From Bacillota bacterium (lineage in GTDB: Bacteria; Bacillota; JAAYKD01), in the NCBI GenBank assembly GCA_036744005.1, contig DAINOJ010000003.1:29403-93402 (forward strand): DNA of 64,000 bases. Direction: 5' to 3'. Positions within the stretch are counted from its first letter, which is position 1. Each line of letters starts with the position of its first letter. Shown here piece after piece: positions 44,347 to 59,946 of this stretch. The position numbers and the translations under genes are program-made. The notes beneath the pieces are model-generated. The model ran no database searches and was not told the DNA's origin. It was given only the letters and a program-made list of their open reading frames with translations.

Positions 44347-44399
44347 TATCGTAAATTTCCCAAAAGGGTCTGACCCCATTGGGAAAAAAGGAGGAAAAG

Positions 44400-45588
44400 A
44401 TGAAGAAAAAAGGCTTAATGACTCGGTTGACCCACGCCGGTGAGAATACCATGGCGAAGAAGATTGCTACATCGGTCTCGGTGCCCAAGGTGAACCCCAT
44501 TTACATGAGCAGTGTATTTTCCTTTGATGATGTGGAGAGTTTGGATGCCGTCTACGATGGTATCGCCAAAGGGTATGTGTACTCGCGCATGTCGAACCCA
44601 GGGACCGATGCCGTGGAAGAGGTGCTGGCGGAGGCAGAAGATTGTGCCGGAGCTCTTGTATTCTCTTCGGGTATGGCAGCGATTATTACCTCGATTTTGG
44701 CTCATGTGCAGTGTGGTGACCATGTTTTGTCGTCCAATGTGCTGTATGGTGGCGTGTATGATTTTTTTAAAAACGAACTACCGCGGTTTGGTATTGAAAT
44801 CACCTTGGCTGATTTCGAAAAGGAAGATGTCAAAGCGCTGATTCGACCCAACACCAAGGTCATTTACACGGAGACCATTTCCAACCCGCTCATGGTGGTA
44901 GAAGATTTGCCACACCTTGCACAGGTAGCTCATGCGCATGGATGCAAGCTCATCGTCGATAATACCTTTGCCACGCCGGCGGTCGCGCAGATTTTAAAAC
45001 TGGGGGTGGATGTGGCGGTATACAGTGCGACCAAGTATTTGGGTGGGCATAGTGATATTTTGGGAGGGGCTCTTACAGCCAACGCGGAAACCATGGGCCA
45101 TCTGCGTCGCTACTTTACGTTATATGGTTCGATTATTCGATGCCTGGATGCTGACACGAAGTTTGCGCACCTTGGATTTGCGTATGGAGCGCCACTGTCG
45201 AAACGCACAAAAAGTGGCGGAGTTTTTTGAGAAACACCAGAAAATTGAACGGGTGTATTACCCGGGCTTAGCTTCTTCGCCGTATCACGAAAGGGCCAAG
45301 CAGTTCTTCTTGGAGAATCGCTTTGGTGGCATGCTCTCGGCCGACATTGCCGGTGGCGAAAAGGCAGCAAGCGCGTTTATAAAAGCATGCCCCACTATAA
45401 AATTGGTACCCAGTTTGGCAGGGGTCTCGACCACCATCTCCTACCCGGCCAAGACTTCGCATCGGGCTTACTCGCCGGAAATGTTAAAACAGGTGGGCAT
45501 TTCCACAGGGCAATTGCGTTTTTCGGTGGGCTTGGAGACCATTGACGATATTTTGGAGGAGTTTGACCAGGCATTGAAGCAAATATAG
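44400..45588 (+). pseudogene. Cys/Met-metabolism PLP-dependent enzyme (cystathionine gamma-synthase / methionine gamma-lyase family) interrupted by a frameshift near 45118-45139
   Basis: Frame A (44400-45230) carries the N-terminal and PLP-lysine region (SATKYLGGHSD). Frame B (through 45588) carries the conserved C-terminal region (FDAWMLTRSLRTLDLRMERHC...). Homology switches frame between HLRRYF and FDAW. Confidence 0.6.
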
Positions 45589-45592
45589 AGAA

Positions 45593-45620
45593 ACGACCTC
45601 GAGTGCTTACTCGGGGTCGT
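45593..45620. terminator. Hairpin between convergent genes (probable bidirectional terminator)
   Basis: ACGACCTCGAG...CTCGGGGTCGT imperfect stem, flanked by T-rich sequence. Confidence 0.5.
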
Positions 45621-45645: not shown

Positions 45646-46281
45646 TTATACAAGATGGTTACGAAGTGCGAAAAGCGCGATTTGGGTACGATCTTGTAAG
45701 CCGGTGGAGGCAAGGATGGCTGAGATGCGGTTACGAATCGTTCCTTCAGAATAATTCAAATGCTCGGCGATCAGGCGATTGGCATAACCAATGCCAATGC
45801 AACGAATGATTTCCAAATCGATTTCGTCAAATTCTAAGTTCAAGTCTGTTGGCATATAGGGTGGAGATGTCACAGCTTGCTCGAGGGTATGCAGTATCGA
45901 AGGATGCATACAAACCAATCCGGCCATGCAACTCTCGATAGCCAAAATAAGAGCAGCCGGTGTCATATCTTTTAACAAATAACCATCGGCATGCAAAGCA
46001 ACCGCTTCCTGGATTTTTTCGTAATCGCCAAATGTGGTTAGCATCACCACTTTCATTTCGGGGAAGGTGGCTTTTAGCTTCTTCAGGGCAAGCAAACCAC
46101 TGCTACCGGGCATTTGAATATCGAGCAAGCAAAGATCGGGAAGATGCTTCGAAGCGAGTCGAACGGCTTCTTCACCATTGCAGGCTCGGGCGATGACCCT
46201 AAAATCAGAGCGACTTCCCAGCAACGTGGCCAACAAATCTAAGAACAGACTCTGATCATCGGCTATTAGAATATGCGTCAT
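45646..46281 (-). CDS. NarL/FixJ (LuxR-type HTH) response regulator
   Basis: Receiver motifs ILIADDQ, LLDIQMPG, and a C-terminal LuxR HTH (IIRCIGIGYANRLIAEHLNYSEGTIRNRISAI). RBS GGAGGG. Confidence 0.85.
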   Translation of the reverse strand: MTHILIADDQSLFLDLLATLLGSRSDFRVIARACNGEEAVRLASKHLPDLCLLDIQMPGSSGLLALKKLKATFPEMKVVMLTTFGDYEKIQEAVALHADGYLLKDMTPAALILAIESCMAGLVCMHPSILHTLEQAVTSPPYMPTDLNLEFDEIDLEIIRCIGIGYANRLIAEHLNYSEGTIRNRISAILASTGLQDRTQIALFALRNHLV

Positions 46282-47110
46282 GACTCATCCCTCCGTGTAC
46301 TAGACGACGAATTTGCTGCAACAATTCACGCAAGCCATGGGCAAGGGTCTGCAGAGTTTCATTTTGACCATCGTTGGCTTGGTTCAACATGTCGGTATCA
46401 CTGAGTAAAAGCAACTCGTCTAGTTTTTTTTGTATTTCCATTTGCAATTGCTCCGCCAATAGTCTTTGTTGTTCCGCCAATAACAAGGCTTCATCTGCTC
46501 GAATTGCCTCTTGCAATTGTTGTTGAATGGCTTGCAACTCTGTCGACTTAAGAGTCCACTCCTGAAACAAAGCTTTCTCGTGGCTGATGTCCTGCAAGAC
46601 GATGAGACACCCTAACGGAATCCCCTTTTGCTGCAATGGCAATTCGCGCAGGATAAAGGTCTGCTCCCCCACTAGCCACTCTTTCTCTGATTTTCGAAGA
46701 GGTAGCACTGCCTGCTCCCATTCCAAAGGCATATTTGAATACACCACTATCCCCGAAGCATTCAACATAAGCAAGGGATCTAGTAACAATGGGGAAACAT
46801 CAGTGACCTTCAACCGAGACGACTTTCCTTTACTTGTTTGCCTCCACTGCCATAACCACCCCAGAATCGCACCCCACCAAATCACGGTTACAGAAACAGA
46901 TAGATACTTCGCAGTAGTGGTCGTCGGTGCAATCACGAGCAAAAACTGCCCCCCGGATGCAAAACAAGCTAACAGCCAAGGCCATACTGCCACAGACCTG
47001 TGCAGGGAAAGATCAAACTGCAGCATGCCGAACCTAAGAAATGTAAGCGCTGCAGTTAACCAAAATAGTAATTGCGGTAGAAACCAAGGACTCATTAGGG
47101 TGTATCGCAT
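46256..47110 (-). CDS. Membrane protein with PAS-like region and a degenerate, histidine-less DHp (HisKA_3-like) segment; no ATPase domain (pseudo-kinase-like)
   Basis: N-terminal TM helices, then EQQRLLAEQLQMEIQKKL...LAHGLRELLQQIRRLVHGG, which aligns by eye to the HisKA_3 pattern with LHD replaced by LQM. Overlaps both the upstream kinase and downstream regulator genes. RBS GGAGGG. Confidence 0.6.
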   Translation of the reverse strand: MRYTLMSPWFLPQLLFWLTAALTFLRFGMLQFDLSLHRSVAVWPWLLACFASGGQFLLVIAPTTTTAKYLSVSVTVIWWGAILGWLWQWRQTSKGKSSRLKVTDVSPLLLDPLLMLNASGIVVYSNMPLEWEQAVLPLRKSEKEWLVGEQTFILRELPLQQKGIPLGCLIVLQDISHEKALFQEWTLKSTELQAIQQQLQEAIRADEALLLAEQQRLLAEQLQMEIQKKLDELLLLSDTDMLNQANDGQNETLQTLAHGLRELLQQIRRLVHGGMSHDAYSNSR

Positions 47111-48729
47111 GATTCAACCCTCCGTTTTAGTAAGGTGTCTATTCGGAACCCTTCCCCTGGGCCATAGGTGAACTTCACCGTTCCGCCCAAAGCAGATACA
47201 CGCTCTTCCATTCCTAGCAATCCGTGACCTTTTTGCAGGTTTTCACAACCCTGACCGTTATCCAAGATGATGAGTTGCACCTGACGAGGTAAATAACGTA
47301 GAACCACATCCATCCTTGTTGCCTTGCTATGCTTAATAGCGTTTGTCAACGCCTCTTGTAACAACCTGTATAAAAGACGGGTTTCCTCTGATCTCAACTC
47401 ATAGGGGTCGCCCTGAACCAACAAGTCTACAGCAATGCCACTGTGAGCGGCTCCGTTTCGAATACTATGTAACGCCATTTGTAAGCTAGTTTGATCCTGT
47501 TTGTTTTCTATCTGCAAGGAAGATTGCCAGTCTGTTCTGCCTTGGATTAAAAGCTCTTTCACTTTGCTTAGCGCTTCCGAAAAGGTCGTGTCTTGTAGCA
47601 AGGCCACCTCTGCTGTCGATAAAGCTAAAACGACCGTATGACCTAAAACGTCGTGCAACTCCTGTAAAACCTTTTGTCGAGCTTTCCACGCAATCCATTC
47701 CTGCCTACGCTGAAGCATTCGCTGCCACCCGGCATTCGCCTCTTGTAAAAGTCGGTTCTGCTCTTCCAGCAGTTGCCTCATCCTCCGAATCGTAGTCACC
47801 GGACGCAAGCGCCACAAGGCACCTGCGGGCACGGTGCTTTTTTCTACCTCGAACCAATCGGATCCCACTTGCACAGTGCTACCCGGGATCCACTCGATGA
47901 ATGGGAGACCTAAAAACACCTCCCTTGCTCGTTCATTGCGGTGTAACACCGTTCCTTGTTCATCGCAAACAAAGCAGGCATCACCGTGTCGCTCAAACAA
48001 TTGTTCTTGTGCCAAGGGAAGCACATCGAGGAAACGGGTTCGCAGGGCAGCCATGGCAAATAAAAGCAAACTGGCATTGGTCGCGATGGGAGTGTAATCA
48101 AAACGAGGGGTATGGTGCAATAGCATTTTGAACCAGCCAAACACATAAAAGAGATTGACAACGAGCGGCAAGAGGATCGCTCCGGTAAATAAGATGGCTT
48201 GTGTCCTTCTATGTTGAAACAAACTGCTATAATCACGGCTCAGCCAGTAGAAGGCAACAGCTAAATAAGCATAGGTAACACTCATGACACCATAGAACAG
48301 AGGTCCGAAATCATCGGCATATAGGGTGAATCGACTATAGAACATAAAGTGCCAAGGGTTACTCCACACGAGCAAAAAACTGATCATTCCGGGCAAAAGC
48401 AGCCAGAAGATTCTCCTGCGCGACGGTAAGCGATGAAACCGATAGACCATGGCAAACAACAATACCAAAGGACCTAAGAAAGAAGAAGCAAAATACTGAA
48501 GTACCACAAAAAACCACCGTAGATCCAAGGTAGAAGCAACGGTCTTGCCGATTTTAGCCAACATCCATAAAGCCAAAGAACCTTGAGCCAACAAATAACA
48601 AGACAACAATGCACCCTTTTTCGCTTTGTGAGAAATAAACCAATTGAAACCAAAGGAAACCAACAATGAGAACAAGTGCCAGGCTTCAATGATAAAAACC
48701 TCGTCTGCTAATTTGGCGGATACTTGCAT
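47095..48729 (-). CDS. Sensor histidine kinase, NarL-partner type (polytopic N-terminal domain, PAS-like, HisKA_3, HATPase_c)
   Basis: About 6-7 N-terminal TM helices, H-box LQELHDVLGHTVV, N-box LLQEALTNAIKHS, G-boxes ILDNGQG and GHGLLGMEERV. Confidence 0.85.
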   Translation of the reverse strand: MQVSAKLADEVFIIEAWHLFSLLVSFGFNWFISHKAKKGALLSCYLLAQGSLALWMLAKIGKTVASTLDLRWFFVVLQYFASSFLGPLVLLFAMVYRFHRLPSRRRIFWLLLPGMISFLLVWSNPWHFMFYSRFTLYADDFGPLFYGVMSVTYAYLAVAFYWLSRDYSSLFQHRRTQAILFTGAILLPLVVNLFYVFGWFKMLLHHTPRFDYTPIATNASLLLFAMAALRTRFLDVLPLAQEQLFERHGDACFVCDEQGTVLHRNERAREVFLGLPFIEWIPGSTVQVGSDWFEVEKSTVPAGALWRLRPVTTIRRMRQLLEEQNRLLQEANAGWQRMLQRRQEWIAWKARQKVLQELHDVLGHTVVLALSTAEVALLQDTTFSEALSKVKELLIQGRTDWQSSLQIENKQDQTSLQMALHSIRNGAAHSGIAVDLLVQGDPYELRSEETRLLYRLLQEALTNAIKHSKATRMDVVLRYLPRQVQLIILDNGQGCENLQKGHGLLGMEERVSALGGTVKFTYGPGEGFRIDTLLKRRVESCDTP

Positions 48730-48783
48730 GATGTCACATCCTTCGCCATGATTCTACTCATTGGGACCAAAAAAGTCAATCAA

Positions 48784-48801
48784 AAATGACAATTGTCATT
48801 T
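48784..48801. promoter_or_regulatory. Perfect 18-bp palindrome AAATGACAATTGTCATTT in the divergent intergenic region
   Basis: Verified base by base. Lies between the kinase operon start (48729) and the small-protein / 2536-aa protein operon start (48880). Confidence 0.6.
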
Positions 48802-48879
48802 CGATTTGGCGGATTCTCACTGTCCCCTCTCCATGGATGCATGTTACACTGGAAAAAAATACAGGAGAAGAGGGATACT

Positions 48880-49119
48880 ATGGAAGAGCATTTCATCCAA
48901 GAACTCTTTGATTTAGGAGAAATCATTGCCAAGCTGGAAGAACGCAGCGTGCGCTTATATGAAAGATTGGGAAGAGAGAGTTACTTACATCGGGAATCTG
49001 ATGCCGCTTTGACACGATTGGAACTACAATATGTGCAAAGCGAGTTGCAAAAGCAAAAGAAGCGACTGGAAGGATTTCATTTTCCAGGAGCATCGGACAA
49101 CAAGGAGGAACGCTCATGA
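48880..49119 (+). CDS. Small coiled-coil protein (79 aa), translationally coupled to the 2536-aa protein gene
   Basis: RBS AGGAGAAGAGGGA before ATG; its TGA stop overlaps the ATG of the next gene (ATGA). Sequence MEEHFIQELFDLGEIIAKLEERSVRLYERL... Confidence 0.5.
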   Translation: MEEHFIQELFDLGEIIAKLEERSVRLYERLGRESYLHRESDAALTRLELQYVQSELQKQKKRLEGFHFPGASDNKEERS

Positions 49120-52100
49120 GACAATCCAAGACACGAATTCTTTGTTTTATTTTACTATTTGTCTCTATGATGATGCAGGTTTCTACACCGATTTCTGCGC
49201 AATCGCTACTGGGTAACGCGCAAGTCCATCGATTGGAATGGACCAGACACCTTGCCGAAGAGGGGGAGGACTCTTTTACTCTGGATGCTGTACATATAGA
49301 GAAAGGGGAAAGCCAGCAAGCGATGGGTTTCCTCACGGCGCAACTCAATGGGAAAATGATAGGGTTGCATCCTTTGGCTTTACCCGATGCAGCAGGAATG
49401 TATCGCATCGGCGACATCGCTTGGACGTTACAAGGCGACCCACAACTCTATAAGATTAAGGTAATCTTGCTGCAAAATCTGCAAGGCTTATTACCCATGA
49501 ATCGGATGTATCAGCTTGGCGAACGCTCTGCCCCGGAAATCGTGACCATCGCTCCAGATCAAGGCAGCTTTGGCACATCTGTCTTATTGACAGGACAGGG
49601 TTTTGCCAGCACTCCGGAGCGAAATATTGTACGGTTCATCCAAGCGGATGGCACAAAACTGTCTGCCTCGGTGGTTTCGGTAGGGAGCAATTACCTAGAG
49701 GTGCTGGCTCCGGTGCTCAATGCCGGCATTCATCAGGTTGAAGTCGAGGTCGAGGGGCGTATAAGTAATCAGAAGAGCTTCAACGCCGAAGCCCTTCCAG
49801 CAGCTCAAGGAAATGAAACACGACAACTCATGCAGGTTACACAATCGTTGTTGACCACTGCCGAGGAGGTGTCCGATACACTACAGGTGGCGAGTTTACC
49901 ACTTGCTCTACAGAGTCAAATGGTACAGTTGTTGGGAGAAGCAGAACAACAAATGAATCATGCTCAGACCGAGCTGATGCAATATTCCCCTGAAGCCCAA
50001 GAACTAATCAATCGTATGCTACAAAGTAGTGGAGTGCCAGAGCAGATCGCTCCCTTGAATAAAGATCCCGTGGGACTCTTGGCAGAAACAGGTCAAGATT
50101 ATACGATTGGAGACCGTTTGGAGAAAGTTGACCAAATCACAAACGACGTGCGTAATGCCAGAGACAAGATTCGCAGTCTCGACCGAAATCTGAAAATAAT
50201 GGAAGCATCACTCACTGTAGGCGGCATTGCCGGATTAGTTTTTGGAGGTTCGGGAAGCGGTGCTATTGCCTTGGCTGCCGAAATTGAAAGCTTTCGTCAA
50301 GCTATCATTCAACCGATACTGCTTAGTTTACGAGCCATTTATACAGTACTCAGCTGTAGCACCAGCAGTGCAGTTGCAGGGTCGTTGCGCTTTGAGTATG
50401 TGGATGATGTTCACATCGAGCAATACTTTGGCCATGCTCAAGAACCAGCACTTCCCGAGTGGCAGAATGAATCTTTGCTAAGCAGCTTGAGCAACGTGTT
50501 TGTGGGTATAGAAGAACTGCAATATCTGCACGATGACGTACTGCACTTGCTGCAGCAACCCTATGGAAGCACAAGCGAGACCATGCCCGAAGGCTTTAGC
50601 ACCGATATGCTACGTGCGTTGCAGCAGATTTCTTTATATGAGGACAACTGGAGACGATTAACACAACAAGCGGATCAGACTTTTTTGCCCGGTGAAACCT
50701 TAAGAAATAATGCCGGTGAGATAGAAGTGTTAATGAAGCAGTATCGCAGAATCGTCAACCAAATCCGTTCGGCGGGAGATAAGATGTTGCAGGATTTGAT
50801 GTATGCGCAAATCAATCCGCAAATGAGTTTTGATCACGATTGGTACCAAAGTATGAAGTATGCTATTGGGGATTTGCTGCGAGAAGCCAACAGCCTAAAC
50901 AGTGTACTAAATGCATTGATTTCTGAATTTCACGAACCGGAACAACTGAACTTTGAAGAAGAATCGCCCGCTTATGCGGGATTTATCGATACGCCAGGAA
51001 TCTTATTGGCAGGCCAATCCTACATAGCACGAGGAAACATGGACTTTAATGTCGGTTTGGACGAAACCAGAGGTCTCGACAACATGTTAGACGGCATTGG
51101 TACTAGTTTTATTGTCGATTTAGTGGGTGGATTGGTGGATCTGGAGTTGGAACTGGAAAACGTTGATGTACGACTCTCGGCGGTATCGTCAGATGAGAGT
51201 GTGTTGCGAACCGAATGGAGCGACAGCATCGGGTTGCGCTTGATTCCACTCAAACCAGGCTTGGTGACCGTAACGATTGTTCCAAACATTCGCCTCGTTA
51301 GGGAAGGAAAGATAAAAGCAGAGTATATCTCGGTGAGTAAACCTTTCCGTGTTATCTCTGCCAATCAGATAGCAGAGGAGTATTCGGTCAATGCTCCATT
51401 GGGCCCAAACTTGGAACATGTGACAGATGAAGCGGGGTTGGAAACTCGCCAAGTTTATTTGGGAGAGACTCTACATGTACAGGGACTGGGTTTTGCTTCT
51501 TCGAGTCAGTACATGAACGTGTATACCGCAGGAGTTCCGGGGATTCATATAGATGGTTTGTTACCTGACTTTCTCTATAAAGGTGTGGGTAGTGAACAGC
51601 AACGCCGAGAAGAACTTTGCATGGAAGTGCCGGACACCTTGTCCGGGCAGCTAAGAGTGGCAGTGCACTTAAAGCAAGCCATGGAAGGCGGAGCGCCTAT
51701 CGATCGTTCAGCGGGATTATCCAATGGAATAGACCTGCAAGTTTTGGCCCCCGTCATCGACTTTATGCCGCCGAATCTCATCGATGGCGAAAGTTATCCA
51801 GTTTTAGGTCGTGGCTTCTCGCATACTCCATGGATGAACAAGATTATATTCGATGACTTTGAAGCAACGAATCCCCAAAGCCAGTCACAATACTACGCAA
51901 TTGTTGAACCAAGTCTGGAAGAACCATTTACTCAACCCAAAGAATACAATGAAGTCACCGCCGAAAATCACCCGTTATTACACGTGTTGCACGAACGCCT
52001 TACTTTTTTGGCAGACGGACAAACCTCCAGTTCACTGAACAACCGTATCAAGGTGCTAGAGCAGGAAGATATGAGTGACATAGCCGGTGGTAGTTTGGTG

Positions 52101-55100
52101 CAAAGCTGGGGATCCGAAATTGTATTTTCGCAAAATGGCATCACCTCAATGCGACCACTATTGGCCGAGGATGAAACCAGCGGCTTACGCATGGCTGCTT
52201 GGGTTGCTCTAAACGAACGTGGCGCAGCTCAGTGGATTGCTGCTGAAATCTATGCGAACGGGAATATGGCTACACCTCAGCACATCGCCTCCAATTTAGG
52301 TTCCATGGAGACCGCACCCGATAAAGGTTGTTTAGTCGCTTATCGTAACCGGTTTTACTTCGTATACACCGGTCGTGATGGAGAGTTAGATCGATTGTAT
52401 TGCAGTATTTATGATGGAGGAAGTTGGTCGATACCCGTCCCTTTGACGGGAGGAATGAGTTCCGCTTTGAAGCCGGTCGCCTGGGTAGGTGATTGGCAAG
52501 ACGACAATCAGGCTGAGTTGTTTTTGGCGTACATTGCTGACGATGGCATGGTCGGCCAAACCATTACGGCGTGGTACACCTTACCTTCATCCGGAGCTCA
52601 ATTACTAGATCAAGTGGTTTTGTCGGCTAACAGCATATCGCGCCCGGCATTAACCAAACATGAAAATGGTTTTTACGTGGCATATCAGGGGATTCATTTA
52701 AGACAGAGTGATCTCTACCTGTGCCATGTGCAAATCTCTGCAAATTCAACATCCTTGCTCCCGGCTGCATCTTTGAGACTAAGTCGCAACAGTGGCGAAG
52801 CACAAGCCGAGAATCCTTCCATCGTCATTGGTCGACACCCGGTCAGTGCGGCTGAGCAAGTTGTGGTAGTGTGGGAGAACTCTGCACCTGCCTCTGGAAC
52901 CATGAACCAGCGTGAGGAGGTGTATTTGGCGACTGTAACCGGGGGAGTCGTCAACGAACCGGTGAATCTAACCCATTCTGAAGGTCATTCGCAAAGTCCC
53001 ACCTTAGCACTGGGTAAAGATGGTAGCATTGCTCTCCTGTTTTTAGAGATCACACCTGCGGGGATATCGGAGAATCAGACCCTGGGCTATACGTCGCAAG
53101 TCTGGTTTACTCGTTCTTTCGATGGAGGAACTCATTTCCAAAGACCCTATTACCCGCTAACCAGTCGTATTCAAGGCGTGCGATTGGGTCATCCTGCTTT
53201 GCTTAACCGCGGTGATGGCAAGGTCAACATGACATGGCAAGCCGGCGATCAATTGTTTTGGCGAAGTAGCGGTGAAACAATCATCCCACCGAGCGAATAT
53301 CCGGCGAATCTACTTACTCCTCGCAAACAAACCTTTGGGTATTCTAATGACGAAACAGGTGTTCGTTTGCTGAATGGAGCAGGAGAGCCCTTGCGTAGAA
53401 TAACAACTGCTACGGGGTGGATGCAAGCATACCCTAGTGAGATGTTGCGTCTAGCTGTTTCTCCTTCGGGTCGTTATGTAGCATTGCCAGGATATTGGCT
53501 TCAAATATCCGAAGCGGACGGCTCACATCCGTTGGACATTGCTCTACCGCATGACATAGAAGAAGAAATGCCCAAACACATTGCTTGGGGATTGGATGAA
53601 CAGGAACTTCGCGTATCGTATGTGGAATTTGGCATCAACAACGCGCAACCTCTAGGAACATGGCAACGGGAAGCGGTGGAAGGCGAGGTGGCTCGTTCTT
53701 ACGGTTTTTCATGGGATCGTCAGGAACGCTACATTCTGCAAAGAGAATGGTTGGACAGCATACCCACTCTGCACCGGGACTTTTATGTGGTCGATAGTGT
53801 AAGTGGAGAAGAGAGGTATGTAACATCGCTACCGAATCGTTTGTTGGCAATATCTCCTGATGGAACCGCAGTGCTCTTACACGATAGTCAAGGTGCTGGT
53901 AGAAATCGGGATGGCTTGGTCCTGCGACAACTCGGAGGAGCCTCAGTGGTATTGTATGAAGGAATTCCTGAAGCAGCAGCGTTTTCATTTAATGGTCGAT
54001 ATATTGCTGCTGTTATGCGACAAACCGGACAACAGGCCGTTTTAAAAGTCTGGGATCTCCATAGTGGAACCTGCTGGGATTTGGCACTTCTGGTGGATAA
54101 CATCGAACGGCTTTCGTTTAGTCCCGATAACAATCGAGTTTTCTGGCAGACCACACAAGCAACCTGGCATACACAAACAGCAGGCGGTGACTCGCAAGTC
54201 GCGAAAACATTTATACAGAATTTTGTTACAGTGGGCCAGGCGAGTGAAACCATGCACGTTTCTGCCGCAGCCAGTGTGTGGAAAAATCGTGCAGGAAGCG
54301 AGATAGGCGTCACGCTGCGTCAGACACCTACAGCAGATGTCACGGTTCAAGTGGTGGTCCCAATGGGGTTGGTTGCATTGCCACAAAGCGTTTCGTTTGC
54401 TGCCGGAGAAGCGCCGATTGCGAGAAAAGTTGGTATCTATGCTCAAGATTCGATGCCAGCAGGACTGAGCACCATTGCTTTACGACTACATTCCGCAGAT
54501 TTACGATTTGAAGGAGTGGAGCAACATGTATCAGTAATCACATCGGAAGCCGCGCCATTCACATCCGGTTTGGGCTACAGCGCTGCCGATTATGGCGATT
54601 TGGCTGTCTATCCGATTTTGCATAATTGGAACAGACAGGTACCGATTGCAGCTGCTGATTGGGAACAACCGTTGTGGCAGGTCAACCCCAGCTTCAATGA
54701 TGTGAAGGTGTTGCAGGCCGGAAATGGTGTCACACTGATGTATGGACGCGATTACATGTACCATGTACATGCGTATAGCAAAACGGGGCAATTGCTCTGG
54801 GAAACCGATGGGAAGTCCCCTTTGCTACAGGGCGAAGACGCGGTTTTCTTACGTGGAGACAATATGTTAATCCGAAAGGATTTACTCACTGGGGAAGAGC
54901 ACCCTCTGATTTTATATCGAGCAGATGGCACAGAGTGGAGATTCTGGACGAGTGACTTGTTCTATGCCGATACGCAGGGGAACATGTACGCTCTGGCTCA
55001 ACGTATGTGGGGTGAGACATTCTTGCACGTATTGCGAATCGAGCCAAACGGACGAGTGAGCGATCATCTTATCGACGAGGCACAGTATTGGCAAGGCGAC

Positions 55101-56726
55101 ATTCCGGTAGTGACTCAAGATGGCAAGCTTCTTGTTGCGCACAATCATACCATTGATGTGATGCGTTTGGACGATTTTTCGGTGGAGCAGACGCTGTATG
55201 GGGTGGACCATTTGTTGTCAGCAGCCATGTTGGATTTTGTTTCACCACAATATTCAATCTTCTATGTCATGAACGATCAGGGTACCTCCACATTGCTGAC
55301 CGCTATGTCCACCAAGAATGCATCGCCACTGTGGCAACGAGTTTTAGCGGGAACATGGAACCAAGTGGGACAACCGGTTCTACATCCACAAGGTATGATG
55401 ATGTTGCCTGTGGGATCGTCGATGCTGGCATTGGGGAGCCAAGACGGCAAAGTGCTATGGCAACAGGATTTTGAGGAAGAAATATCGGGAGCACCGGTCC
55501 TGGATGCCAGAGGTGATATATATGTAACAGTCGGTGATGACCTACTGCGCTTGTCAGGAGAAGGAGTGCTACTACAACGCAAGAGCTTTGGCGAAGGAGG
55601 GCGCTTCGCAGTGAATACTTGCATTGGCCATGCGGGCCAAGTGATCTTTGGTGGAGGTATGACTGCAGACCAAACGAGGTATCCGATTTATGCATGGGGT
55701 GTAACCTTGGAAGAACCCTTGGTCAGCGATGTAGTACTAGCCGATTCTTTGCTGCGCGTTCGCGAAGACGAAGGGGAATTGCGTGTACGGTTGCTGGATC
55801 AATCCTCAGGTGAGAAAGGTGGCTTTGAAGTGGAGGCGCAGCTGTTACCTCTCACGGCAATACAGGGTACGGATTATCAGCTCAATTACAAAAACAGCAC
55901 CGGACGAGTTGCATTCGCCGAGGGTGCAGAGGAAGCGTGGCTGTATATTGATATATTCGATGGGTACGATGTACAATCGAGCCGAGATTTTTTAGTGAAG
56001 ATCGTAGGTGTGACGGGTGAAAAGACCTTTACCAGCAATGTGACTACGGTGCTGGTGGAAGATGTCAGTGTGGCACCGGAGCAGCGTTCCCGCGTAGGTT
56101 GGGGGGTAGGAGAAATGCTATATAAAGAAGGAGAAAGTGGCAACATGGTGCTGAAACGTTCTCCAAACAGCATAGGAACCTTGCCGGAGTTGGAGGTGCG
56201 GTTGCAAATCGGGAGCCCGGGAAGTTATTTCGCCTATACCGAGGCACTACAAGGGGTGGATTATTCCGCACAATGGACTCCCGACAGCGCTGGGCGGGTG
56301 ACGATTTTGTTTGCCGAAGGGCAGAGCGAGGTTATCATACCATGGCAGGCATTCATGCGGGAAGGGATGCAAGGGCTACGCAAATGGGACGTACGAGTAT
56401 GGATGAACTCTGCAGTAGACCCCGACTTTTCTATGCCGCAGACCTATGTCAGCGAGCTCAAATTATATGTGGCAGAGGGAGACTTTGCGGTTCCGGAACC
56501 GAGAATCAAGCAGGTAGGCGAGACAGAGTGGAAGGTTTCCAATATACTATATGGTGGATGGTTCGAAGTAGAGACCTCCGATGGCACTGTTTTGCAGCAC
56601 ACGAACGGATACCTTCAGTCGCTCGATGGGGAATACTCGGTGTATGATTTACCCGCCGGTAATCCACTAATCTTGCGTTCCGGCTTCGCCAACCAATCTA
56701 CCACTCTGACATTTAACACACCCTAA
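49116..56726 (+). CDS. Giant secreted multidomain protein (2536 aa): signal peptide, IPT/TIG-like domain, long helical region, BNR/Asp-box-like and PQQ-like beta-propeller regions, Calx-beta-like domains
   Basis: RBS AAGGAGG 7 nt before ATG. Signal-like N-terminus MRQSKTRILCFILLFVSMMMQVSTPISAQS. IPT-like segment IVTIAPDQGSFGTSVLLTGQGFAS...IVRF. Asp-box-like TRSFDGGTHF. Calx-beta-like LPLTAIQGTDYQL...VAFAEGAEEAWLYIDIFDG. Confidence 0.8.
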   Translation: MRQSKTRILCFILLFVSMMMQVSTPISAQSLLGNAQVHRLEWTRHLAEEGEDSFTLDAVHIEKGESQQAMGFLTAQLNGKMIGLHPLALPDAAGMYRIGDIAWTLQGDPQLYKIKVILLQNLQGLLPMNRMYQLGERSAPEIVTIAPDQGSFGTSVLLTGQGFASTPERNIVRFIQADGTKLSASVVSVGSNYLEVLAPVLNAGIHQVEVEVEGRISNQKSFNAEALPAAQGNETRQLMQVTQSLLTTAEEVSDTLQVASLPLALQSQMVQLLGEAEQQMNHAQTELMQYSPEAQELINRMLQSSGVPEQIAPLNKDPVGLLAETGQDYTIGDRLEKVDQITNDVRNARDKIRSLDRNLKIMEASLTVGGIAGLVFGGSGSGAIALAAEIESFRQAIIQPILLSLRAIYTVLSCSTSSAVAGSLRFEYVDDVHIEQYFGHAQEPALPEWQNESLLSSLSNVFVGIEELQYLHDDVLHLLQQPYGSTSETMPEGFSTDMLRALQQISLYEDNWRRLTQQADQTFLPGETLRNNAGEIEVLMKQYRRIVNQIRSAGDKMLQDLMYAQINPQMSFDHDWYQSMKYAIGDLLREANSLNSVLNALISEFHEPEQLNFEEESPAYAGFIDTPGILLAGQSYIARGNMDFNVGLDETRGLDNMLDGIGTSFIVDLVGGLVDLELELENVDVRLSAVSSDESVLRTEWSDSIGLRLIPLKPGLVTVTIVPNIRLVREGKIKAEYISVSKPFRVISANQIAEEYSVNAPLGPNLEHVTDEAGLETRQVYLGETLHVQGLGFASSSQYMNVYTAGVPGIHIDGLLPDFLYKGVGSEQQRREELCMEVPDTLSGQLRVAVHLKQAMEGGAPIDRSAGLSNGIDLQVLAPVIDFMPPNLIDGESYPVLGRGFSHTPWMNKIIFDDFEATNPQSQSQYYAIVEPSLEEPFTQPKEYNEVTAENHPLLHVLHERLTFLADGQTSSSLNNRIKVLEQEDMSDIAGGSLVQSWGSEIVFSQNGITSMRPLLAEDETSGLRMAAWVALNERGAAQWIAAEIYANGNMATPQHIASNLGSMETAPDKGCLVAYRNRFYFVYTGRDGELDRLYCSIYDGGSWSIPVPLTGGMSSALKPVAWVGDWQDDNQAELFLAYIADDGMVGQTITAWYTLPSSGAQLLDQVVLSANSISRPALTKHENGFYVAYQGIHLRQSDLYLCHVQISANSTSLLPAASLRLSRNSGEAQAENPSIVIGRHPVSAAEQVVVVWENSAPASGTMNQREEVYLATVTGGVVNEPVNLTHSEGHSQSPTLALGKDGSIALLFLEITPAGISENQTLGYTSQVWFTRSFDGGTHFQRPYYPLTSRIQGVRLGHPALLNRGDGKVNMTWQAGDQLFWRSSGETIIPPSEYPANLLTPRKQTFGYSNDETGVRLLNGAGEPLRRITTATGWMQAYPSEMLRLAVSPSGRYVALPGYWLQISEADGSHPLDIALPHDIEEEMPKHIAWGLDEQELRVSYVEFGINNAQPLGTWQREAVEGEVARSYGFSWDRQERYILQREWLDSIPTLHRDFYVVDSVSGEERYVTSLPNRLLAISPDGTAVLLHDSQGAGRNRDGLVLRQLGGASVVLYEGIPEAAAFSFNGRYIAAVMRQTGQQAVLKVWDLHSGTCWDLALLVDNIERLSFSPDNNRVFWQTTQATWHTQTAGGDSQVAKTFIQNFVTVGQASETMHVSAAASVWKNRAGSEIGVTLRQTPTADVTVQVVVPMGLVALPQSVSFAAGEAPIARKVGIYAQDSMPAGLSTIALRLHSADLRFEGVEQHVSVITSEAAPFTSGLGYSAADYGDLAVYPILHNWNRQVPIAAADWEQPLWQVNPSFNDVKVLQAGNGVTLMYGRDYMYHVHAYSKTGQLLWETDGKSPLLQGEDAVFLRGDNMLIRKDLLTGEEHPLILYRADGTEWRFWTSDLFYADTQGNMYALAQRMWGETFLHVLRIEPNGRVSDHLIDEAQYWQGDIPVVTQDGKLLVAHNHTIDVMRLDDFSVEQTLYGVDHLLSAAMLDFVSPQYSIFYVMNDQGTSTLLTAMSTKNASPLWQRVLAGTWNQVGQPVLHPQGMMMLPVGSSMLALGSQDGKVLWQQDFEEEISGAPVLDARGDIYVTVGDDLLRLSGEGVLLQRKSFGEGGRFAVNTCIGHAGQVIFGGGMTADQTRYPIYAWGVTLEEPLVSDVVLADSLLRVREDEGELRVRLLDQSSGEKGGFEVEAQLLPLTAIQGTDYQLNYKNSTGRVAFAEGAEEAWLYIDIFDGYDVQSSRDFLVKIVGVTGEKTFTSNVTTVLVEDVSVAPEQRSRVGWGVGEMLYKEGESGNMVLKRSPNSIGTLPELEVRLQIGSPGSYFAYTEALQGVDYSAQWTPDSAGRVTILFAEGQSEVIIPWQAFMREGMQGLRKWDVRVWMNSAVDPDFSMPQTYVSELKLYVAEGDFAVPEPRIKQVGETEWKVSNILYGGWFEVETSDGTVLQHTNGYLQSLDGEYSVYDLPAGNPLILRSGFANQSTTLTFNTP

Positions 56727-56853
56727 TGAATGACTAGTAAGGGAACGAGGGATTTCATTTCGAATGAGGGGTTCAATTTTGTAAAATAAAAGGATAATGT
56801 CGACATAAAACGAAATAATTGGTATTCAACAAATTTTGTGCGGAGGTGACAAT

Positions 56854-58710
56854 ATGCCCCCTACCGATGAGATGCTGAACAGAAACCCATTGTTGTTGAA
56901 ACCCAATGAGCGTTTTCCGACCTATCAGTTCTATGCCACCATGACCGGGAAAGCGTCTCCCGAGCAAACGTTGCTTACGGCTATATTAACCACATTTTCC
57001 TGGTTGCGAGAACGCTTTCGCGAGTTAGAGGTTCCGGCGGATTTGCAGCTGCCATCTGCGAGCGAAGTTGCCACTGTAGGCCTAGAGTGCTTACGCTCGT
57101 TCCGCATTGCCGTGGGTTACACGGTAGAGGTGGTCTGGATTGCCGAAAAAGGGGTATGGGCCATGCAACTTAGCGAGCCCGACTTGGGTGATGGTCATCA
57201 AGCCGGTCGCACTCCGGTCGCCGGACGGATTTTTGAAACCAACATTGCTTTTCGTCTGACACACGATAAAGTGGAAATGGGGTTTCGCACCCTCGTTTCT
57301 CAGCCATTGGGCACCATGGAGCCTTGCGAAGTGTATCGCCCGGCGGTAATAAAGGATTTGGTGCGCAACTCTGGTCTGAAGTTCTTTGGCGAGTGGCCCA
57401 TTGTGGAGTCGTGCTGGAGCGTTTCCAAAGGAGAGGTCCATAAGCTGATGCTGTGGCTCAAAAACAAGAAACGCACCCTGCCGGCGGTCGTGACACGTAT
57501 GACTACCCCAGGTGTGACGACGATGAGCCGTGAAACAGTGTTGAAGATCGCTCAGTTGCTTGAAGTGATCGCGATACAAAGACCTGGCAGTCCACACATA
57601 AACCTTCCTTTCGTTGACCCAAATTCGGCAGCAAAATCAGCATCTACCCACCCGTTTTGTGGTCTACTAGATGATGTTCCCCGATTGCGCATGGGGTATG
57701 CCCAGTTTTTTCTGTTTGCCGAGGATTCTGCCTATGAAGCGGCTCGCAAGCTTGGCTTGGAACTGGCAGAGAACGAGATTCGAGTCTATCCAGTTTGTAA
57801 ACCAGATGGTTTAGTGCCTGCGCATTCGTTTCATATCACGAGCAAGAACCAGAAGCAGGTCAAAGAAGAGTTGCTGAAGGAGCTACAGGATGCACCGAAG
57901 AACCATCCGAATGAGTTTGGTGACGTGGTTTTCTTAGCGGAGGCGAAGATTTTAGAGCAGAGTCGCTTCATGGATTTGGCCAAGTCGAAGGAAGAACTAC
58001 AGCTGCGATGGATGGAAAAGTGGGATGCGCGGGAGAACGGCATTGAAAACGAACGGGCCAGTTGGCGTCGCCAGCTGGTGGAATGGAAAGAGGACTTGGC
58101 ACGAGTAGAAGAGGAGCTGGCAGAAGCGCGTGCCGATGCCAAACGCTGGGAAAAAGAATACCTTGAGCTCGAGCGTGCGAGTAAATGGCGAAACGAGGAG
58201 GACCAAGGACTCATCGATTGGCTGAAAGCGCAACGGAATTGGCCAAATGAGGTGGAAGAAGTGGCGGCCTGGGTAGAACGAACCCAAGCAGGGAAGCTGA
58301 TTCTACACCAAAAAGCATTGAGCGTACTGAAGAGTGTAGAGCTTCCGGATATCGATGTTTTTGCGCTATGTTCAGCACTGGAGTTTTTAGCGAATGAACA
58401 ACGCGATTGGTTGTTAAAGAAGATAGACGATGTGCAACTTCGTTTGCGATGCACCCGAAAATATGGTCGGCCTTTTGAAGTGTCTACCTCATCGGAAACA
58501 ACCTTGAAGAAATATTGGGATGAGTACAAAATCAAATACGGCAAATCAGAAAAAGGGAAATCGCATGAGCAAGCACTGACCTATCACTTAAAGGTAGGTA
58601 CTAACTCGGAAAAAATGATTCGTATTTACTATTTATGGGATGCTGAGAAAAAAATCATTGTGGTGGGGTCGTTGCCCAAGCATTTGCCAACAGTGTCGGA
58701 TCCACATTAA
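56854..58710 (+). CDS. Hypothetical 618-aa protein: unassigned N-terminal domain, central coiled coil, C-terminal segment resembling the RelE/ParE toxin-fold motif
   Basis: RBS GGAGGTG before ATG. Coiled-coil stretch ...WRRQLVEWKEDLARVEEELAEARADAKRWEKEYLELERA. C-terminus YHLKVGTNSEKMIRIYYLWDAEKKIIVVGSLPKH resembles the RelE core YKIKLRSSGYRLVYQVIDEKVVVFVISVGKRE. Confidence 0.55.
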   Translation: MPPTDEMLNRNPLLLKPNERFPTYQFYATMTGKASPEQTLLTAILTTFSWLRERFRELEVPADLQLPSASEVATVGLECLRSFRIAVGYTVEVVWIAEKGVWAMQLSEPDLGDGHQAGRTPVAGRIFETNIAFRLTHDKVEMGFRTLVSQPLGTMEPCEVYRPAVIKDLVRNSGLKFFGEWPIVESCWSVSKGEVHKLMLWLKNKKRTLPAVVTRMTTPGVTTMSRETVLKIAQLLEVIAIQRPGSPHINLPFVDPNSAAKSASTHPFCGLLDDVPRLRMGYAQFFLFAEDSAYEAARKLGLELAENEIRVYPVCKPDGLVPAHSFHITSKNQKQVKEELLKELQDAPKNHPNEFGDVVFLAEAKILEQSRFMDLAKSKEELQLRWMEKWDARENGIENERASWRRQLVEWKEDLARVEEELAEARADAKRWEKEYLELERASKWRNEEDQGLIDWLKAQRNWPNEVEEVAAWVERTQAGKLILHQKALSVLKSVELPDIDVFALCSALEFLANEQRDWLLKKIDDVQLRLRCTRKYGRPFEVSTSSETTLKKYWDEYKIKYGKSEKGKSHEQALTYHLKVGTNSEKMIRIYYLWDAEKKIIVVGSLPKHLPTVSDPH

Positions 58711-59672: not shown

Positions 59673-59746
59673 TTGGTTCACCTCCCTACATTAGGTATTA
59701 TAGAATACTCGCCAAAATCCTGCTCGACTTTTTTTGCACATCGGAT

Positions 59747-59895: not shown

Positions 59896-59946
59896 TGCGG
59901 TATGTAACTAAAATTGAAACATTTACATGGATTGGGGGAGAATGCT

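What the first reader, a model, noticed from the sequence alone, without database searches (positions are those of the whole stretch)
48784..48801. Perfect 18-bp palindrome in the divergent promoter region between the kinase operon and the giant-protein operon
AAATGACAATTGTCATTT is a perfect inverted repeat centred about 55 bp upstream of the kinase start and about 80 bp upstream of the small-protein gene. Its size and symmetry suit a dimeric HTH regulator, and the adjacent NarL-type regulator is an obvious candidate. That would put the 2536-aa protein operon under control of this two-component system.
Basis: seen in the sequence. Interest (0 to 1): 0.5.

Follow-up and report, generated by a model that had tools for sequence, protein, structure and literature searches.

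The report
DesR-type operator of a two-component cassette
The 18-bp palindrome is real and is very probably the DNA site where the neighbouring response regulator binds as a dimer to control its own operon and the divergent giant-protein operon; it is an ordinary kind of switch, of the type known from the Bacillus DesK/DesR system, found here in an unstudied gene cassette.

Summary
The palindrome AAATGACAATTGTCATTT is at 48784-48801 as reported. It lies between a histidine kinase/284-aa protein/response regulator operon (- strand) and a small-protein/2536-aa secreted-protein operon (+ strand).

- **Conservation:** the core ATGACA-N2-TGTCAT is kept in the same intergenic region in all 10 independent lineages of this cassette, at kinase identities down to 38%, while the flanking DNA has diverged. 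It was absent from 354 kb of unrelated kinase loci.
- **Link to DesR:** the regulator's closest solved relative is B. subtilis DesR, and both have the same recognition-helix core (GT[IV]RN..S). The des promoter and three DesR/YvfU-type ABC-operon promoters carry the same arms and spacing. One has the identical 14-mer.
- **Layout:** as in DesR promoters, a second, weaker site lies about two helical turns away (three in some lineages), on the giant-operon side. The palindrome also sits 4 bp upstream of the -35 of a near-consensus kinase promoter, centred near -48.5.

No binding or transcript data exist. The direction of regulation and the target promoter are inferred. This is a new member of a known kind and of modest interest.

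The parts
48784..48801 (.). Primary operator: perfect 18-bp palindrome AAATGACAATTGTCATTT, with core ATGACA-AT-TGTCAT at 48786-48799. Predicted high-affinity site for a dimer of the cassette's response regulator.
   Evidence: Read directly. Unique in the window. The core is conserved in 10 of 10 cassette lineages, at 1.69 bits per position against 0.45 in the flanks. The arms and spacing match the des promoter and three DesR/YvfU-type ABC promoters.
48813..48820 (.). Secondary, weaker half-site ATTCTCAC (GTGAGAAT on the - strand), 21 bp from the equivalent arm of the palindrome, on the giant-operon side. Predicted lower-affinity site for a second dimer.
   Evidence: In the other lineages the corresponding element is rTGACAwT at 21, 21, 22, 22, 31, 32 or 33 bp, with L007 an outlier at 49. 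The window copy matches only 4 of 6 core positions, so its assignment is inferred. The layout is analogous to the ATGAy repeat 22-23 bp from the palindrome in DesR-family promoters.
48751..48779 (-). Sigma-70-type promoter of the kinase operon: TTGACT (48779-48774), 17-bp spacer, TAGAAT (48756-48751). The predicted transcription start is near 48744, which puts the palindrome at -40 to -57, centred at -48.5.
   Evidence: Consensus scan, 10 of 12 matches, the only hit in the region. The same geometry, with the centre at -48.5 to -50.5, is seen in the window, L007, L008, L018, L021 and L022, and by eye in L012 and L016. The start site is predicted, not mapped.
48842..48850 (+). Candidate extended -10 (TGtTACACT) of the small-protein/giant-protein operon. 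It contains the CACTG motif that is conserved across lineages; a second copy is at 48818-48822.
   Evidence: Read from the sequence and from comparison of orthologous regions. With this -10 the palindrome centre is at about -64.5 and the secondary site at about -43.5, close to my estimate for DesR at Pdes. The consensus scan found no full -35/-10 promoter on this strand. This part is tentative.
47095..48729 (-). Sensor histidine kinase, 544 aa: 7TM sensor domain (HisKA_7TM), an H-box of HisKA_3 type (LQELHDVLGH, H359) and HATPase_c.
   Evidence: Pfam, alignment A1, NCBIfam matches to UhpB/LiaS/NarX-class kinases below cut-off. Only about 10 close homologues were found among 5.8 billion proteins.
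46256..47110 (-). Conserved 284-aa membrane and coiled-coil protein of unknown function, translationally coupled between the kinase and regulator genes.
   Evidence: No Pfam, NCBIfam or PADLOC hit. Hydrophobic segments. A 280-319 aa gene sits at this position in all cassette loci; detectable sequence similarity to the window protein was found for L008, L009 and L012.
45646..46281 (-). Response regulator, 211 aa, REC + GerE/LuxR HTH, with recognition helix SEGTIRNRISAIL. Proposed binder of the palindrome.
   Evidence: Pfam. Closest solved structure is DesR 4ldz, followed by NarL and VraR/LiaR. The HTH is nearly invariant among cassette regulators that are only 49-76% identical overall. The acidic pocket (DD, D54), T82 and K104 are conserved.
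48880..49119 (+). 79-aa cytoplasmic coiled-coil protein, first gene of the divergent operon. Its stop codon overlaps the start of the giant gene (ATGA).
   Evidence: Translation. No family hit. Homologues share the motif LFxLGE..LE.....L...LG in 7 lineages and are absent from the L018/L021/L022 lineages.
49116..56726 (+). 2536-aa secreted protein with a signal peptide, a TIG domain, a weak PQQ-like beta-propeller hit and no C-terminal anchor. Proposed regulated output.
   Evidence: Pfam, N- and C-terminal sequence and hydropathy. It is 35% identical over its full length to the L008 giant. Homologues carry Calx-beta and, in L009, SLH domains.

Best explanation
The palindrome is the high-affinity operator of a self-contained two-component cassette.

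Proposed mechanism:
1. The 7TM histidine kinase phosphorylates the DesR-like response regulator at D54.
2. A regulator dimer binds the two inverted half-sites ATGACA/TGTCAT, separated by 2 bp.
3. From a position 4 bp upstream of the -35 hexamer of the kinase promoter (centre about -48.5), the dimer activates its own operon.
4. A second dimer is recruited to a weaker site one face-aligned step away (21 bp in this window) on the other side, and this activates the divergent small-protein/giant-secreted-protein operon. This follows the model described for DesR at the des promoter.

Shown here: the site exists, it is conserved, it co-occurs with the cassette, and the same DNA word lies in the promoters of systems governed by DesR-family regulators that share this recognition helix. 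Inferred: physical binding by this regulator, the sign of regulation (activation), cooperative use of the secondary site, and the location of the target promoter.
For: 1. Phylogenetic footprint. Ten independent lineages (kinase identity 38-100%) all carry ATGACA-N2-TGTCAT upstream of the kinase gene: the window, L007, L008/L020, L009, L011, L012, L016, L018, L021 and L022. Information content is 1.69 bits per position in the 18-mer against 0.45 in the flanks.
2. Pattern of variation. The variation fits a symmetric dimer site. The arms are invariant while the central dinucleotide varies (AT, TT, AA). The only arm change, in L011, is symmetric (GTGACA..TGTCAC).
3. Specificity. At one arm mismatch or fewer there is one hit in the 64-kb window and none in 354 kb of unrelated HisKA_3 kinase loci.
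4. The regulator's HTH. It is almost invariant among cassette orthologues. Its recognition helix GTIRNRIS matches DesR's GTVRNYIS, and DesR is the best PDB hit.
5. The same operator in DesR-family systems. The B. subtilis-group des promoter has ATGACAAGTGTCAT (L084). The ABC-HK-RR operons of B. thuringiensis, Latilactobacillus curvatus and Ligilactobacillus salivarius have ATGACAAATGTCAT, ATGACATTTGTCAT and ATGACAATTGTCAT. Each has a further ATGAC repeat 22-23 bp on.
6. Published DesR behaviour. DesR binds a distal high-affinity site and a proximal lower-affinity site on the same DNA face, and both are needed for activation (PMC4251995). [quoted passage not shown]
7. Secondary half-site spacing. 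The half-site lies 21, 21, 22, 22, 31, 32 or 33 bp away, roughly two or three helical turns.
8. Position relative to the kinase promoter. The palindrome abuts the -35 rather than overlapping the core promoter in most lineages.
9. Synteny. The cassette keeps its divergent layout in unrelated genomic neighbourhoods.
10. A distant relative. L015 (26% kinase identity, same 7TM domain) has ATGACACATGTCAT plus ATGACA 32 bp on, between its regulator gene and the next operon.
Against: - There are no binding, footprint, transcript-start or expression data. Every orthologue comes from a metagenome.
- The regulator is only 31-34% identical to DesR-family proteins. Shared specificity is therefore inferred from the recognition helix and from co-occurrence.
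- The secondary site in this window is weak (4 of 6 core positions). L007 has an out-of-phase spacing of 49 bp. The conserved half of the secondary site is the promoter-proximal one here but the distal one in DesR promoters.
- No convincing sigma-70 promoter was found for the giant operon. Depending on which conserved element is the -10, the secondary site would sit near -43, -36 or -26, and the last two positions would fit repression better than activation.
- In L009 and L011 the palindrome lies at about -42.5 and -71.5 relative to the kinase promoter, not about -49.
- The lineages share ancestry, so spacing classes count as few independent events.
- I could not read the original DesR footprint papers. 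That the des inverted repeat is the DesR site rests on text in later papers plus my reading of the sequence.
Confidence: 0.75

Rival explanations
1. The palindrome is an operator through which the same regulator represses rather than activates one or both promoters. For example, it could occlude the -35 of a target promoter built from the palindrome's own TTGTCA arm plus CTCACT 17 bp downstream (48793-48798 and 48816-48821).
For: TTGTCA followed 17-19 bp later by nnCACT recurs in all lineages. In most it uses the secondary site; in this window it uses the palindrome arm itself. If nnCACT is a -10 element, regulator sites overlap the -35. No other clear target promoter was found.
Against: nnCACT is a poor -10, lacking the A at position 2 in most lineages. 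On the kinase side the palindrome sits upstream of a near-consensus core promoter and does not overlap it. The characterised relatives with the same operator are activators (PMC4251995, PMC7726353).
Confidence: 0.15
2. The palindrome is bound by a regulator other than the one encoded next to it. Candidates are another DesR/YvfU-family regulator elsewhere in the genome, or an unrelated dimeric HTH protein.
For: The same DNA word is used by several DesR-family systems, so cross-recognition is chemically plausible. YvfU can act on the des promoter when overexpressed (PMC7726353). Only 64 kb of this genome is available.
Against: The site travels with the cassette into different genomic contexts and taxa, and the cassette regulator is the only DNA-binding protein always present. 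Its recognition helix is invariant alongside the invariant arms. The 79-aa protein is absent from three lineages that keep the palindrome. The 284-aa protein appears to be membrane-bound. The only other regulator in the window is a fragment of a different class.
Confidence: 0.07
3. The palindrome is not a protein operator. It could be a chance palindrome, an RNA or DNA hairpin such as a terminator or processing site, or a restriction-modification target (the centre is CAATTG).
For: A perfect 18-bp palindrome turns up in 27% of random 64-kb sequences. The transcribed region would fold into a modest hairpin (-10.8 kcal/mol, z -2.7).
Against: Conservation in 10 of 10 lineages against diverged flanks rules out chance. 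The centre CAATTG is the part that varies (CATTTG, CAAATG), while the arms are fixed, which is the opposite of what a CAATTG recognition site would show. The stem is AU-rich with no U-tract and lies upstream of both predicted promoters. There is no Rfam match.
Confidence: 0.03

Closest known systems
DesR operator of the Bacillus subtilis des promoter (DesK/DesR membrane-fluidity system)
   Same: The half-sites and spacing are identical: ATGACA-N2-TGTCAT (des: ATGACAAGTGTCAT, L084 262-275). A further weaker site lies about two helical turns away toward the regulated gene (PMC4251995). The regulator is of the same class with the same recognition-helix core GT[VI]RN..S, and DesR is the best PDB match. 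The distance from palindrome centre to target start codon is similar, 95.5 bp against 87.5 bp.
   Different: The regulator is only about 33% identical to DesR. The kinase has a 7TM HisKA_7TM sensor, not the 5TM DesK_N domain. An extra conserved 284-aa gene lies between kinase and regulator. The target is a giant secreted protein, not a desaturase. The layout is divergent, with the palindrome also abutting the kinase promoter. The well-conserved half of the secondary site is the promoter-proximal one, and the spacing is 21-22 or 31-33 bp rather than 22-23 bp.
YvfT/YvfU-type (BA5598/BA5597, SA1313/SA1314) ABC-transporter/HK/RR operons of Bacillota
   Same: The promoters carry the same operator. 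The Ligilactobacillus salivarius plasmid copy is the identical 14-mer ATGACAATTGTCAT, and B. thuringiensis and L. curvatus differ only in the central dinucleotide. The regulated genes sit next to the two-component genes, and the two-component genes are within the regulated unit. [quoted passage not shown]
   Different: Those systems are co-linear operons with DesK-like kinases and small ABC exporters as output. This cassette is divergent, uses a different sensor domain and has large, heterogeneous secreted proteins as output.
NarL '7-2-7' sites and other NarL/LuxR-class palindromic operators (for example the EvgA 18-bp inverted repeat between evgAS and emrKY, and the TraR tra box); these examples are from my own knowledge, not tested here
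   Same: The geometry is the same: two inverted 6-7 bp half-sites separated by 2 bp (AATGACA-AT-TGTCATT), bound by a GerE-type HTH dimer. As recalled for EvgA, an 18-bp inverted repeat sits in a divergent region between the two-component operon and its target operon. NarL, EvgA and VraR appear among the PDB relatives.
   Different: The half-site sequence is unrelated (the NarL heptamer is TACYYMT). The residues at the positions that contact bases in NarL (K188, V189, K192, from memory) are R, N and S here and in DesR.

Membership tests
NarL/LuxR (GerE-HTH) class response regulators | N-terminal receiver domain with acidic pocket, phospho-acceptor Asp, conserved Thr and Lys | tested here: met
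   Pfam Response_reg at 2.9e-26. D9/D10, D54, T82 and K104 are present, and D54, T82 and K104 are invariant in alignment A2.
NarL/LuxR (GerE-HTH) class response regulators | C-terminal GerE/LuxR-type helix-turn-helix | tested here: met
   Pfam GerE at 6.3e-05, 23.0 bits, just under the 23.5-bit cut-off. Full-length alignment to DesR, NarL and VraR structures including the HTH. NCBIfam NarL model at 2.4e-35, below the equivalog cut-off.
NarL/LuxR (GerE-HTH) class response regulators | Partner kinase with HisKA_3-type H-box | tested here: met
   The invariant motif QELHDxLGH (H359) is present in alignment A1. More distant homologues score PF07730 HisKA_3. The Pfam HisKA_3 model itself did not reach threshold on the window protein.
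DesR/YvfU subfamily operator (DNA element) | Inverted repeat ATGACA-N2-TGTCAT in the promoter of the adjacent regulated operon | tested here: met
   Window 48786-48799 has no arm mismatches. The same word is present at des (L084) and at three ABC-HK-RR operons (L089-L091).
DesR/YvfU subfamily operator (DNA element) | Additional lower-affinity site on the same helix face, about 22-23 bp from the inverted repeat, toward the regulated promoter | tested here: inconclusive
   A half-site is present at 21 bp in the window but is weak (TCTCAC). It is stronger in other lineages at 21-22 or 31-33 bp, with one outlier at 49 bp, and the opposite half is the conserved one.
DesR/YvfU subfamily operator (DNA element) | Bound by the phosphorylated regulator; occupancy required for activation | not testable with these tools
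   This needs EMSA or footprinting and reporter assays. It is known for DesR only from the literature (PMC4251995).
DesK/DesR (or YvfT/YvfU) orthologous system | Regulator orthologous to DesR (high full-length identity) | tested here: not met
   31-34% identity to DesR, BA5597-type and lactobacillal relatives. DesR orthologues are 80-95% identical to one another.
DesK/DesR (or YvfT/YvfU) orthologous system | Kinase with DesK_N five-helix membrane sensor | tested here: not met
   The window kinase has HisKA_7TM (1.6e-29) and no DesK_N hit. The DesK of L084 and L085 has PF23540 DesK_N.
DesK/DesR (or YvfT/YvfU) orthologous system | Output is a fatty-acid desaturase or a small ABC transporter | tested here: not met
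   The output genes are a 79-aa coiled-coil protein and a 2536-aa secreted TIG-domain protein.

The most novel reading that the evidence does not exclude
The five-gene cassette may be a previously undescribed, horizontally mobile sensory-output module of uncultured Clostridia-like bacteria. It comprises a 7TM kinase, a 284-aa membrane/coiled-coil protein, a DesR-like regulator, a small coiled-coil protein and a giant, lineage-variable secreted protein. In this reading one shared DesR-type palindrome acts as a bidirectional switch. It couples positive autoregulation of the sensor to on-demand production of a very costly surface or exo-protein, possibly in response to a membrane or envelope signal sensed within the bilayer, as DesK does.
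Probability: 0.4. Interest if true: 0.5.

Novelty: new member of a known kind. Interest (0 to 1): 0.35.

Why it matters
This result turns an anonymous palindrome into a specific, testable regulatory prediction. A rare 7TM-kinase system, known only from metagenomes, appears to control a 2536-aa secreted protein through an operator whose sequence rules are already understood from DesR.

It also shows that the DesR half-site code (ATGACA-N2-TGTCAT, read by a GT[IV]RN..S recognition helix) extends to regulators only about a third identical to DesR that are wired to different sensors and outputs. That is useful for predicting regulons of NarL-class regulators in uncultured Bacillota.

It does not reveal a new mechanism. 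A two-component system that autoregulates and controls the neighbouring operon through a palindromic site is textbook behaviour.

Tried and rejected
- **Chance palindrome:** window statistics alone are unconvincing (0.3 expected per window). The idea is rejected on conservation and specificity, not on those statistics.
- **Further sites in the window (local regulon):** none beyond chance. The 14-mer with up to 3 mismatches gives 4 hits against 4.6 expected, and none at one arm mismatch or fewer.
- **RNA element or terminator:** no Rfam match. The hairpin is weak and AU-rich with no U-tract, and the scan found no terminator-like site.
- **CAATTG restriction site:** rejected because the centre varies and the arms do not.
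- **Small 79-aa or 284-aa protein as the binder:** rejected on absence of the small gene from three lineages and on the membrane character of the 284-aa protein.
- **Sigma-54 promoter:** a GGCAC-N5-TTGT resemblance in L018 is not shared by other lineages, so it was dropped.
- **Placing the target-operon promoter:** consensus scans gave no consistent answer across lineages. Three candidate -10 elements remain: TGTTAyxxT, nnCACT, and the hexamer after CACT.
- **Naming the organism:** the species-representative genome scan returned only three 'Eubacteriales bacterium' MAGs. Cluster members are unnamed or labelled 'bioreactor metagenome'.
- **Original DesR footprint papers:** PMC145467 is not held, and literal searches for the operator sequence in the paper library found nothing relevant.
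- **Neobacillus DesR loci (L085-L087):** des is not adjacent there and no operator was in range. The same holds for Cytobacillus L088 and Paenibacillus L092.
- **More distant 7TM kinases:** L013, L014, L023 and L025 have different contexts and no palindrome.
- **Known anti-phage defence system:** PADLOC gave no hit for the kinase, the 284-aa protein, the small protein or the giant protein; the regulator had only a marginal receiver-domain hit (SduA, E 6.6e-4).

Full report
**1. Observation**

The sequence AAATGACAATTGTCATTT occupies window 48784-48801 and is a perfect inverted repeat with no spacer. It is the only perfect palindrome of 16 bp or more in the 64 kb. On its own that is weak evidence. 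First-order Markov simulations of the window give 0.30 such palindromes, and 27% of simulated windows contain one. Its position and its conservation are what matter.

**2. Gene context**

The palindrome lies in the 150-bp gap between two divergent gene sets.

- On the - strand are three overlapping and therefore probably co-transcribed genes:
  - a 544-aa histidine kinase (47095-48729) with a HisKA_7TM sensor, an H-box LQELHDVLGH and HATPase_c;
  - a 284-aa protein with hydrophobic segments, a coiled coil and no family hit (46256-47110);
  - a 211-aa REC+GerE response regulator (45646-46281).
- On the + strand are a 79-aa coiled-coil protein (48880-49119) and, overlapping its stop codon, a 2536-aa protein (49116-56726). 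The large protein has a signal peptide, a TIG domain and no C-terminal anchor.

**3. Promoter context**

The only sigma-70-like promoter found in the region is on the kinase strand: TTGACT (48779-48774), a 17-bp spacer, then TAGAAT (48756-48751), matching 10 of 12 positions. The palindrome starts 4 bp upstream of that -35 hexamer. With a start site near 48744 it covers -40 to -57 and is centred at -48.5. It does not overlap the core promoter.

No full promoter was found on the + strand. The best candidate is an extended -10, TGtTACACT, at 48842-48850. That would put the palindrome at about -64.5.

**4. Orthologous regions**

The kinase belongs to a rare family, with about ten close homologues among 5.8 billion proteins. 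I fetched their contigs, scanned one genome per species, and scanned the metagenome collection. This yielded ten independent lineages with kinase identity from 38% to 100%: the window/L001, L007, L008/L020, L009, L011, L012, L016, L018, L021 and L022.

Wherever the contig reaches far enough, the kinase is followed by a 280-319 aa gene and a REC+GerE regulator, and a large secreted protein is encoded divergently. The genomic neighbourhoods differ.

Every lineage has ATGACA-N2-TGTCAT upstream of the kinase gene:
- L009 has the identical 18-mer.
- L008 has a 36-bp perfect palindrome around it.
- L012 and L018 have 16-mers.
- L007, L016 and L022 change only one central base.
- L011 changes the outermost base of both arms symmetrically (GTGACAATTGTCAC).

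Anchored on the core, information content is 1.69 bits per position across the 18-mer and 0.45 in the 50-bp flanks. At one arm mismatch or fewer the motif occurs once in the window and not at all in 354 kb of unrelated HisKA_3 kinase loci. The pattern of fixed arms, a free centre and a symmetric change is what a dimeric DNA-binding protein would impose.

**5. More than one site**

On the side facing the large-protein operon, each lineage has a further half-site, rTGACAwT. Its distance from the matching arm of the palindrome is:
- 21, 21, 22 or 22 bp in the window, L016, L018/L022, L012 and L021;
- 31, 32 or 33 bp in L008, L009 and L011;
- 49 bp in L007.

These spacings are close to two or three helical turns. 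The classes are few evolutionary events, so the phasing is suggestive only. In the window this element is ATTCTCAC (48813-48820), which is weaker than in other lineages.

Beyond it, a CACTG motif is conserved. It lies 19-23 nt after the secondary site in most lineages, and the window has copies at 48818-48822 and 48847-48851. Its role is unresolved. It could be part of the target promoter's -10 region or a third weak site.

On the kinase side, the palindrome centre falls at -48.5 to -50.5 relative to a good promoter in the window, L007, L008, L018, L021 and L022, and by eye in L012 and L016. In L009 it falls at about -42.5 and in L011 at about -71.5.

**6. Which protein binds**

The cassette's only DNA-binding protein is the response regulator. 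It has the full set of receiver residues (DD, D54, T82, K104). Its C-terminal HTH, IAE.LNYSEGTIRNRIS.IL..TGL.DRTQIALFA, is almost invariant among orthologues that are only 49-76% identical overall. This matches the invariance of the DNA arms.

Its best match among solved structures is B. subtilis DesR (4ldz, E 3.9e-26), ahead of NarL and VraR/LiaR. The recognition helices are GTIRNRISAIL here and GTVRNYISMIL in DesR. At the positions I recall as base-contacting in the NarL-DNA structure (K188, V189, K192; my own knowledge), both have R, N and S.

**7. Direct comparison with DesR-family promoters**

I rebuilt DesR from the PDB alignment, found its cluster and fetched a B. subtilis-group contig (L084). 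The only strong palindrome upstream of des is ATGACAAGTGTCAT (262-275). It has the same arms and spacing as the window site, followed by ATGATG 23 bp from the first arm.

I then took DesR relatives from annotated plasmid records. Three ABC-transporter/kinase/regulator operons of the YvfTU type each have exactly one zero-mismatch site in 10.6 kb, just upstream of the ABC genes:
- B. thuringiensis: ATGACAAATGTCAT, with ATGACG 23 bp on.
- Latilactobacillus curvatus: ATGACATTTGTCAT, with ATGACA 23 bp on.
- Ligilactobacillus salivarius: ATGACAATTGTCAT, with ATGACT 22 bp on. This is the same 14-mer as in the window.

All these regulators carry GT[VI]RNY[IM]S, yet are only 31-34% identical to the window regulator. 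The distance from palindrome centre to target start codon is 78-95 bp in these systems and 87.5 bp here.

A distant relative of the window kinase (L015, 26% identity, same 7TM domain) has ATGACACATGTCAT plus ATGACA 32 bp on, between its regulator gene and a downstream MacB-type ABC operon.

**8. What the literature says**

[quoted passage not shown] A dimer binds the first. Dimer-dimer contacts fill the second. Both are needed to activate transcription (PMC4251995). [quoted passage not shown]

I could not obtain the original footprint papers. From memory, the protected region is -28 to -77. On L084 that would put the palindrome near -64 and the second site near -42. With TGtTACACT as the -10, the window gives -64.5 and -43.5.

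**9. Mechanism proposed**

The palindrome is the primary, high-affinity dimer site of a DesR-type operator that serves both divergent promoters. The phosphorylated regulator bound there, just upstream of the kinase -35, would activate its own operon. Cooperative filling of the weaker site or sites toward the other side would activate the small-protein/giant-protein operon.

- Shown: the existence, conservation and specificity of the site; its co-occurrence with the cassette; the identity of its half-sites with those of promoters governed by regulators that share the recognition helix.
- Inferred: binding by this regulator, cooperativity, activation rather than repression, and the position of the target promoter.

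The main uncertainty is the sign and geometry on the target side. If the conserved nnCACT is itself the -10, the regulator sites overlap the -35 region, and repression becomes plausible.

**10. Rivals**

- Another DesR-family regulator could recognise the same word. The site moves with the cassette, and the cassette regulator is the only constant DNA-binding protein.
- The 79-aa protein is missing from three lineages that keep the palindrome.
- An RNA hairpin, a terminator or a CAATTG restriction site does not fit. There is no Rfam hit. The hairpin is AU-rich with no U-tract and lies upstream of both predicted promoters. The centre is the variable part.

**11. Classification and novelty**

The element works like, and by sequence is, a DesR/YvfU-type operator. 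The system is not a DesK/DesR orthologue:
- The regulator is about 33% identical to DesR.
- The kinase has a different sensor domain.
- There is an extra conserved gene.
- The output is a large secreted protein that differs between lineages. The window and L008 giants are 35% identical over their full length, L012 and L016 are related to each other, and L018 is different.

It is therefore a new member of a known kind. The cassette itself is uncharacterised and, in the collections searched, occurs only in metagenomic assemblies (bioreactor samples and 'Eubacteriales' MAGs).

**12. Verdict**

The interest is modest. A specialist would not be surprised by an autoregulated two-component system with a palindromic operator. 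The result does give a precise, cheap experiment and extends the DesR recognition code to a new sensor/output pairing.

Noticed in passing
window 18517-32190 (+): A second giant gene encodes a 4557-aa protein with 11 Listeria-Bacteroides (Flg_new) repeats, DUF5018 and fibronectin-III domains. No ATGACA-N2-TGTCAT site lies near it.
   Followed up: partly
window 56836-58710 (+): The 624-aa gene just downstream of the giant gene matches PADLOC candidate defence family HEC-07 (E 7e-28, C-terminal half). It follows the giant gene only in the window/L001 lineage, so it is probably not part of the regulated cassette.
   Followed up: partly
window 44379-45588 (+): The Cys/Met-metabolism PLP enzyme gene is split into two overlapping reading frames (44379-45230 and 45010-45588). 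The L007 orthologue is a single 398-aa gene. This is a likely frameshift, either a pseudogene or a shared assembly error.
   Followed up: no
window 46256-47110 (-), and the equivalent gene in L007-L018: A conserved 280-319 aa gene with hydrophobic segments and a long coiled coil sits between the kinase and regulator genes in every cassette lineage. It has no hit in Pfam, NCBIfam or PADLOC. It may be an accessory component of the signalling system.
   Followed up: partly
window 48880-49119 (+); L007-L016 equivalents: The small 77-93 aa proteins that precede the large secreted proteins form an unannotated family with the motif LFxLGE..LE.....L...LG. They are translationally coupled to the giant gene here and absent from the L018/L021/L022 lineages.
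   Followed up: partly
window 48818-48822 and 48847-48851; all orthologous intergenic regions: A CACTG motif is conserved 19-23 nt beyond the secondary half-site in most lineages, while the DNA in between is not conserved. It could be part of an unusual -10 region or a further weak regulator site.
   Followed up: partly
L008 8165-8200 (= L020): In this lineage the operator is embedded in a 36-bp perfect palindrome, TAAATAAGAAAATGACAATTGTCATTTTCTTATTTA. This is far longer than a single dimer site needs.
   Followed up: no
L015 12422-12460: A distantly related 7TM kinase/regulator pair (26% kinase identity) has ATGACACATGTCAT starting at the stop codon of the regulator gene, and ATGACA 32 bp further on. 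Both lie upstream of a 327-aa gene and a MacB-type ABC transporter. This suggests the same operator logic in a co-linear layout.
   Followed up: partly
window 59914-62640 (+) and 58794-59681 (-): A 908-aa multi-PAS/GAF/GGDEF/HD-GYP signalling protein lies next to an AraC-type regulator.
   Followed up: no
window 3-374 (-) and 328-1884 (-): A second two-component pair lies at the window edge: a DUF4118+HisKA+HATPase kinase and a truncated response regulator. It is of a different class from the cassette regulator.
   Followed up: no
window 45593-45620: A 12-bp-stem, GC-rich hairpin sits between the convergent ends of the PLP-enzyme gene and the regulator gene. It is a likely terminator at the 3' end of the kinase operon.
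   Followed up: no
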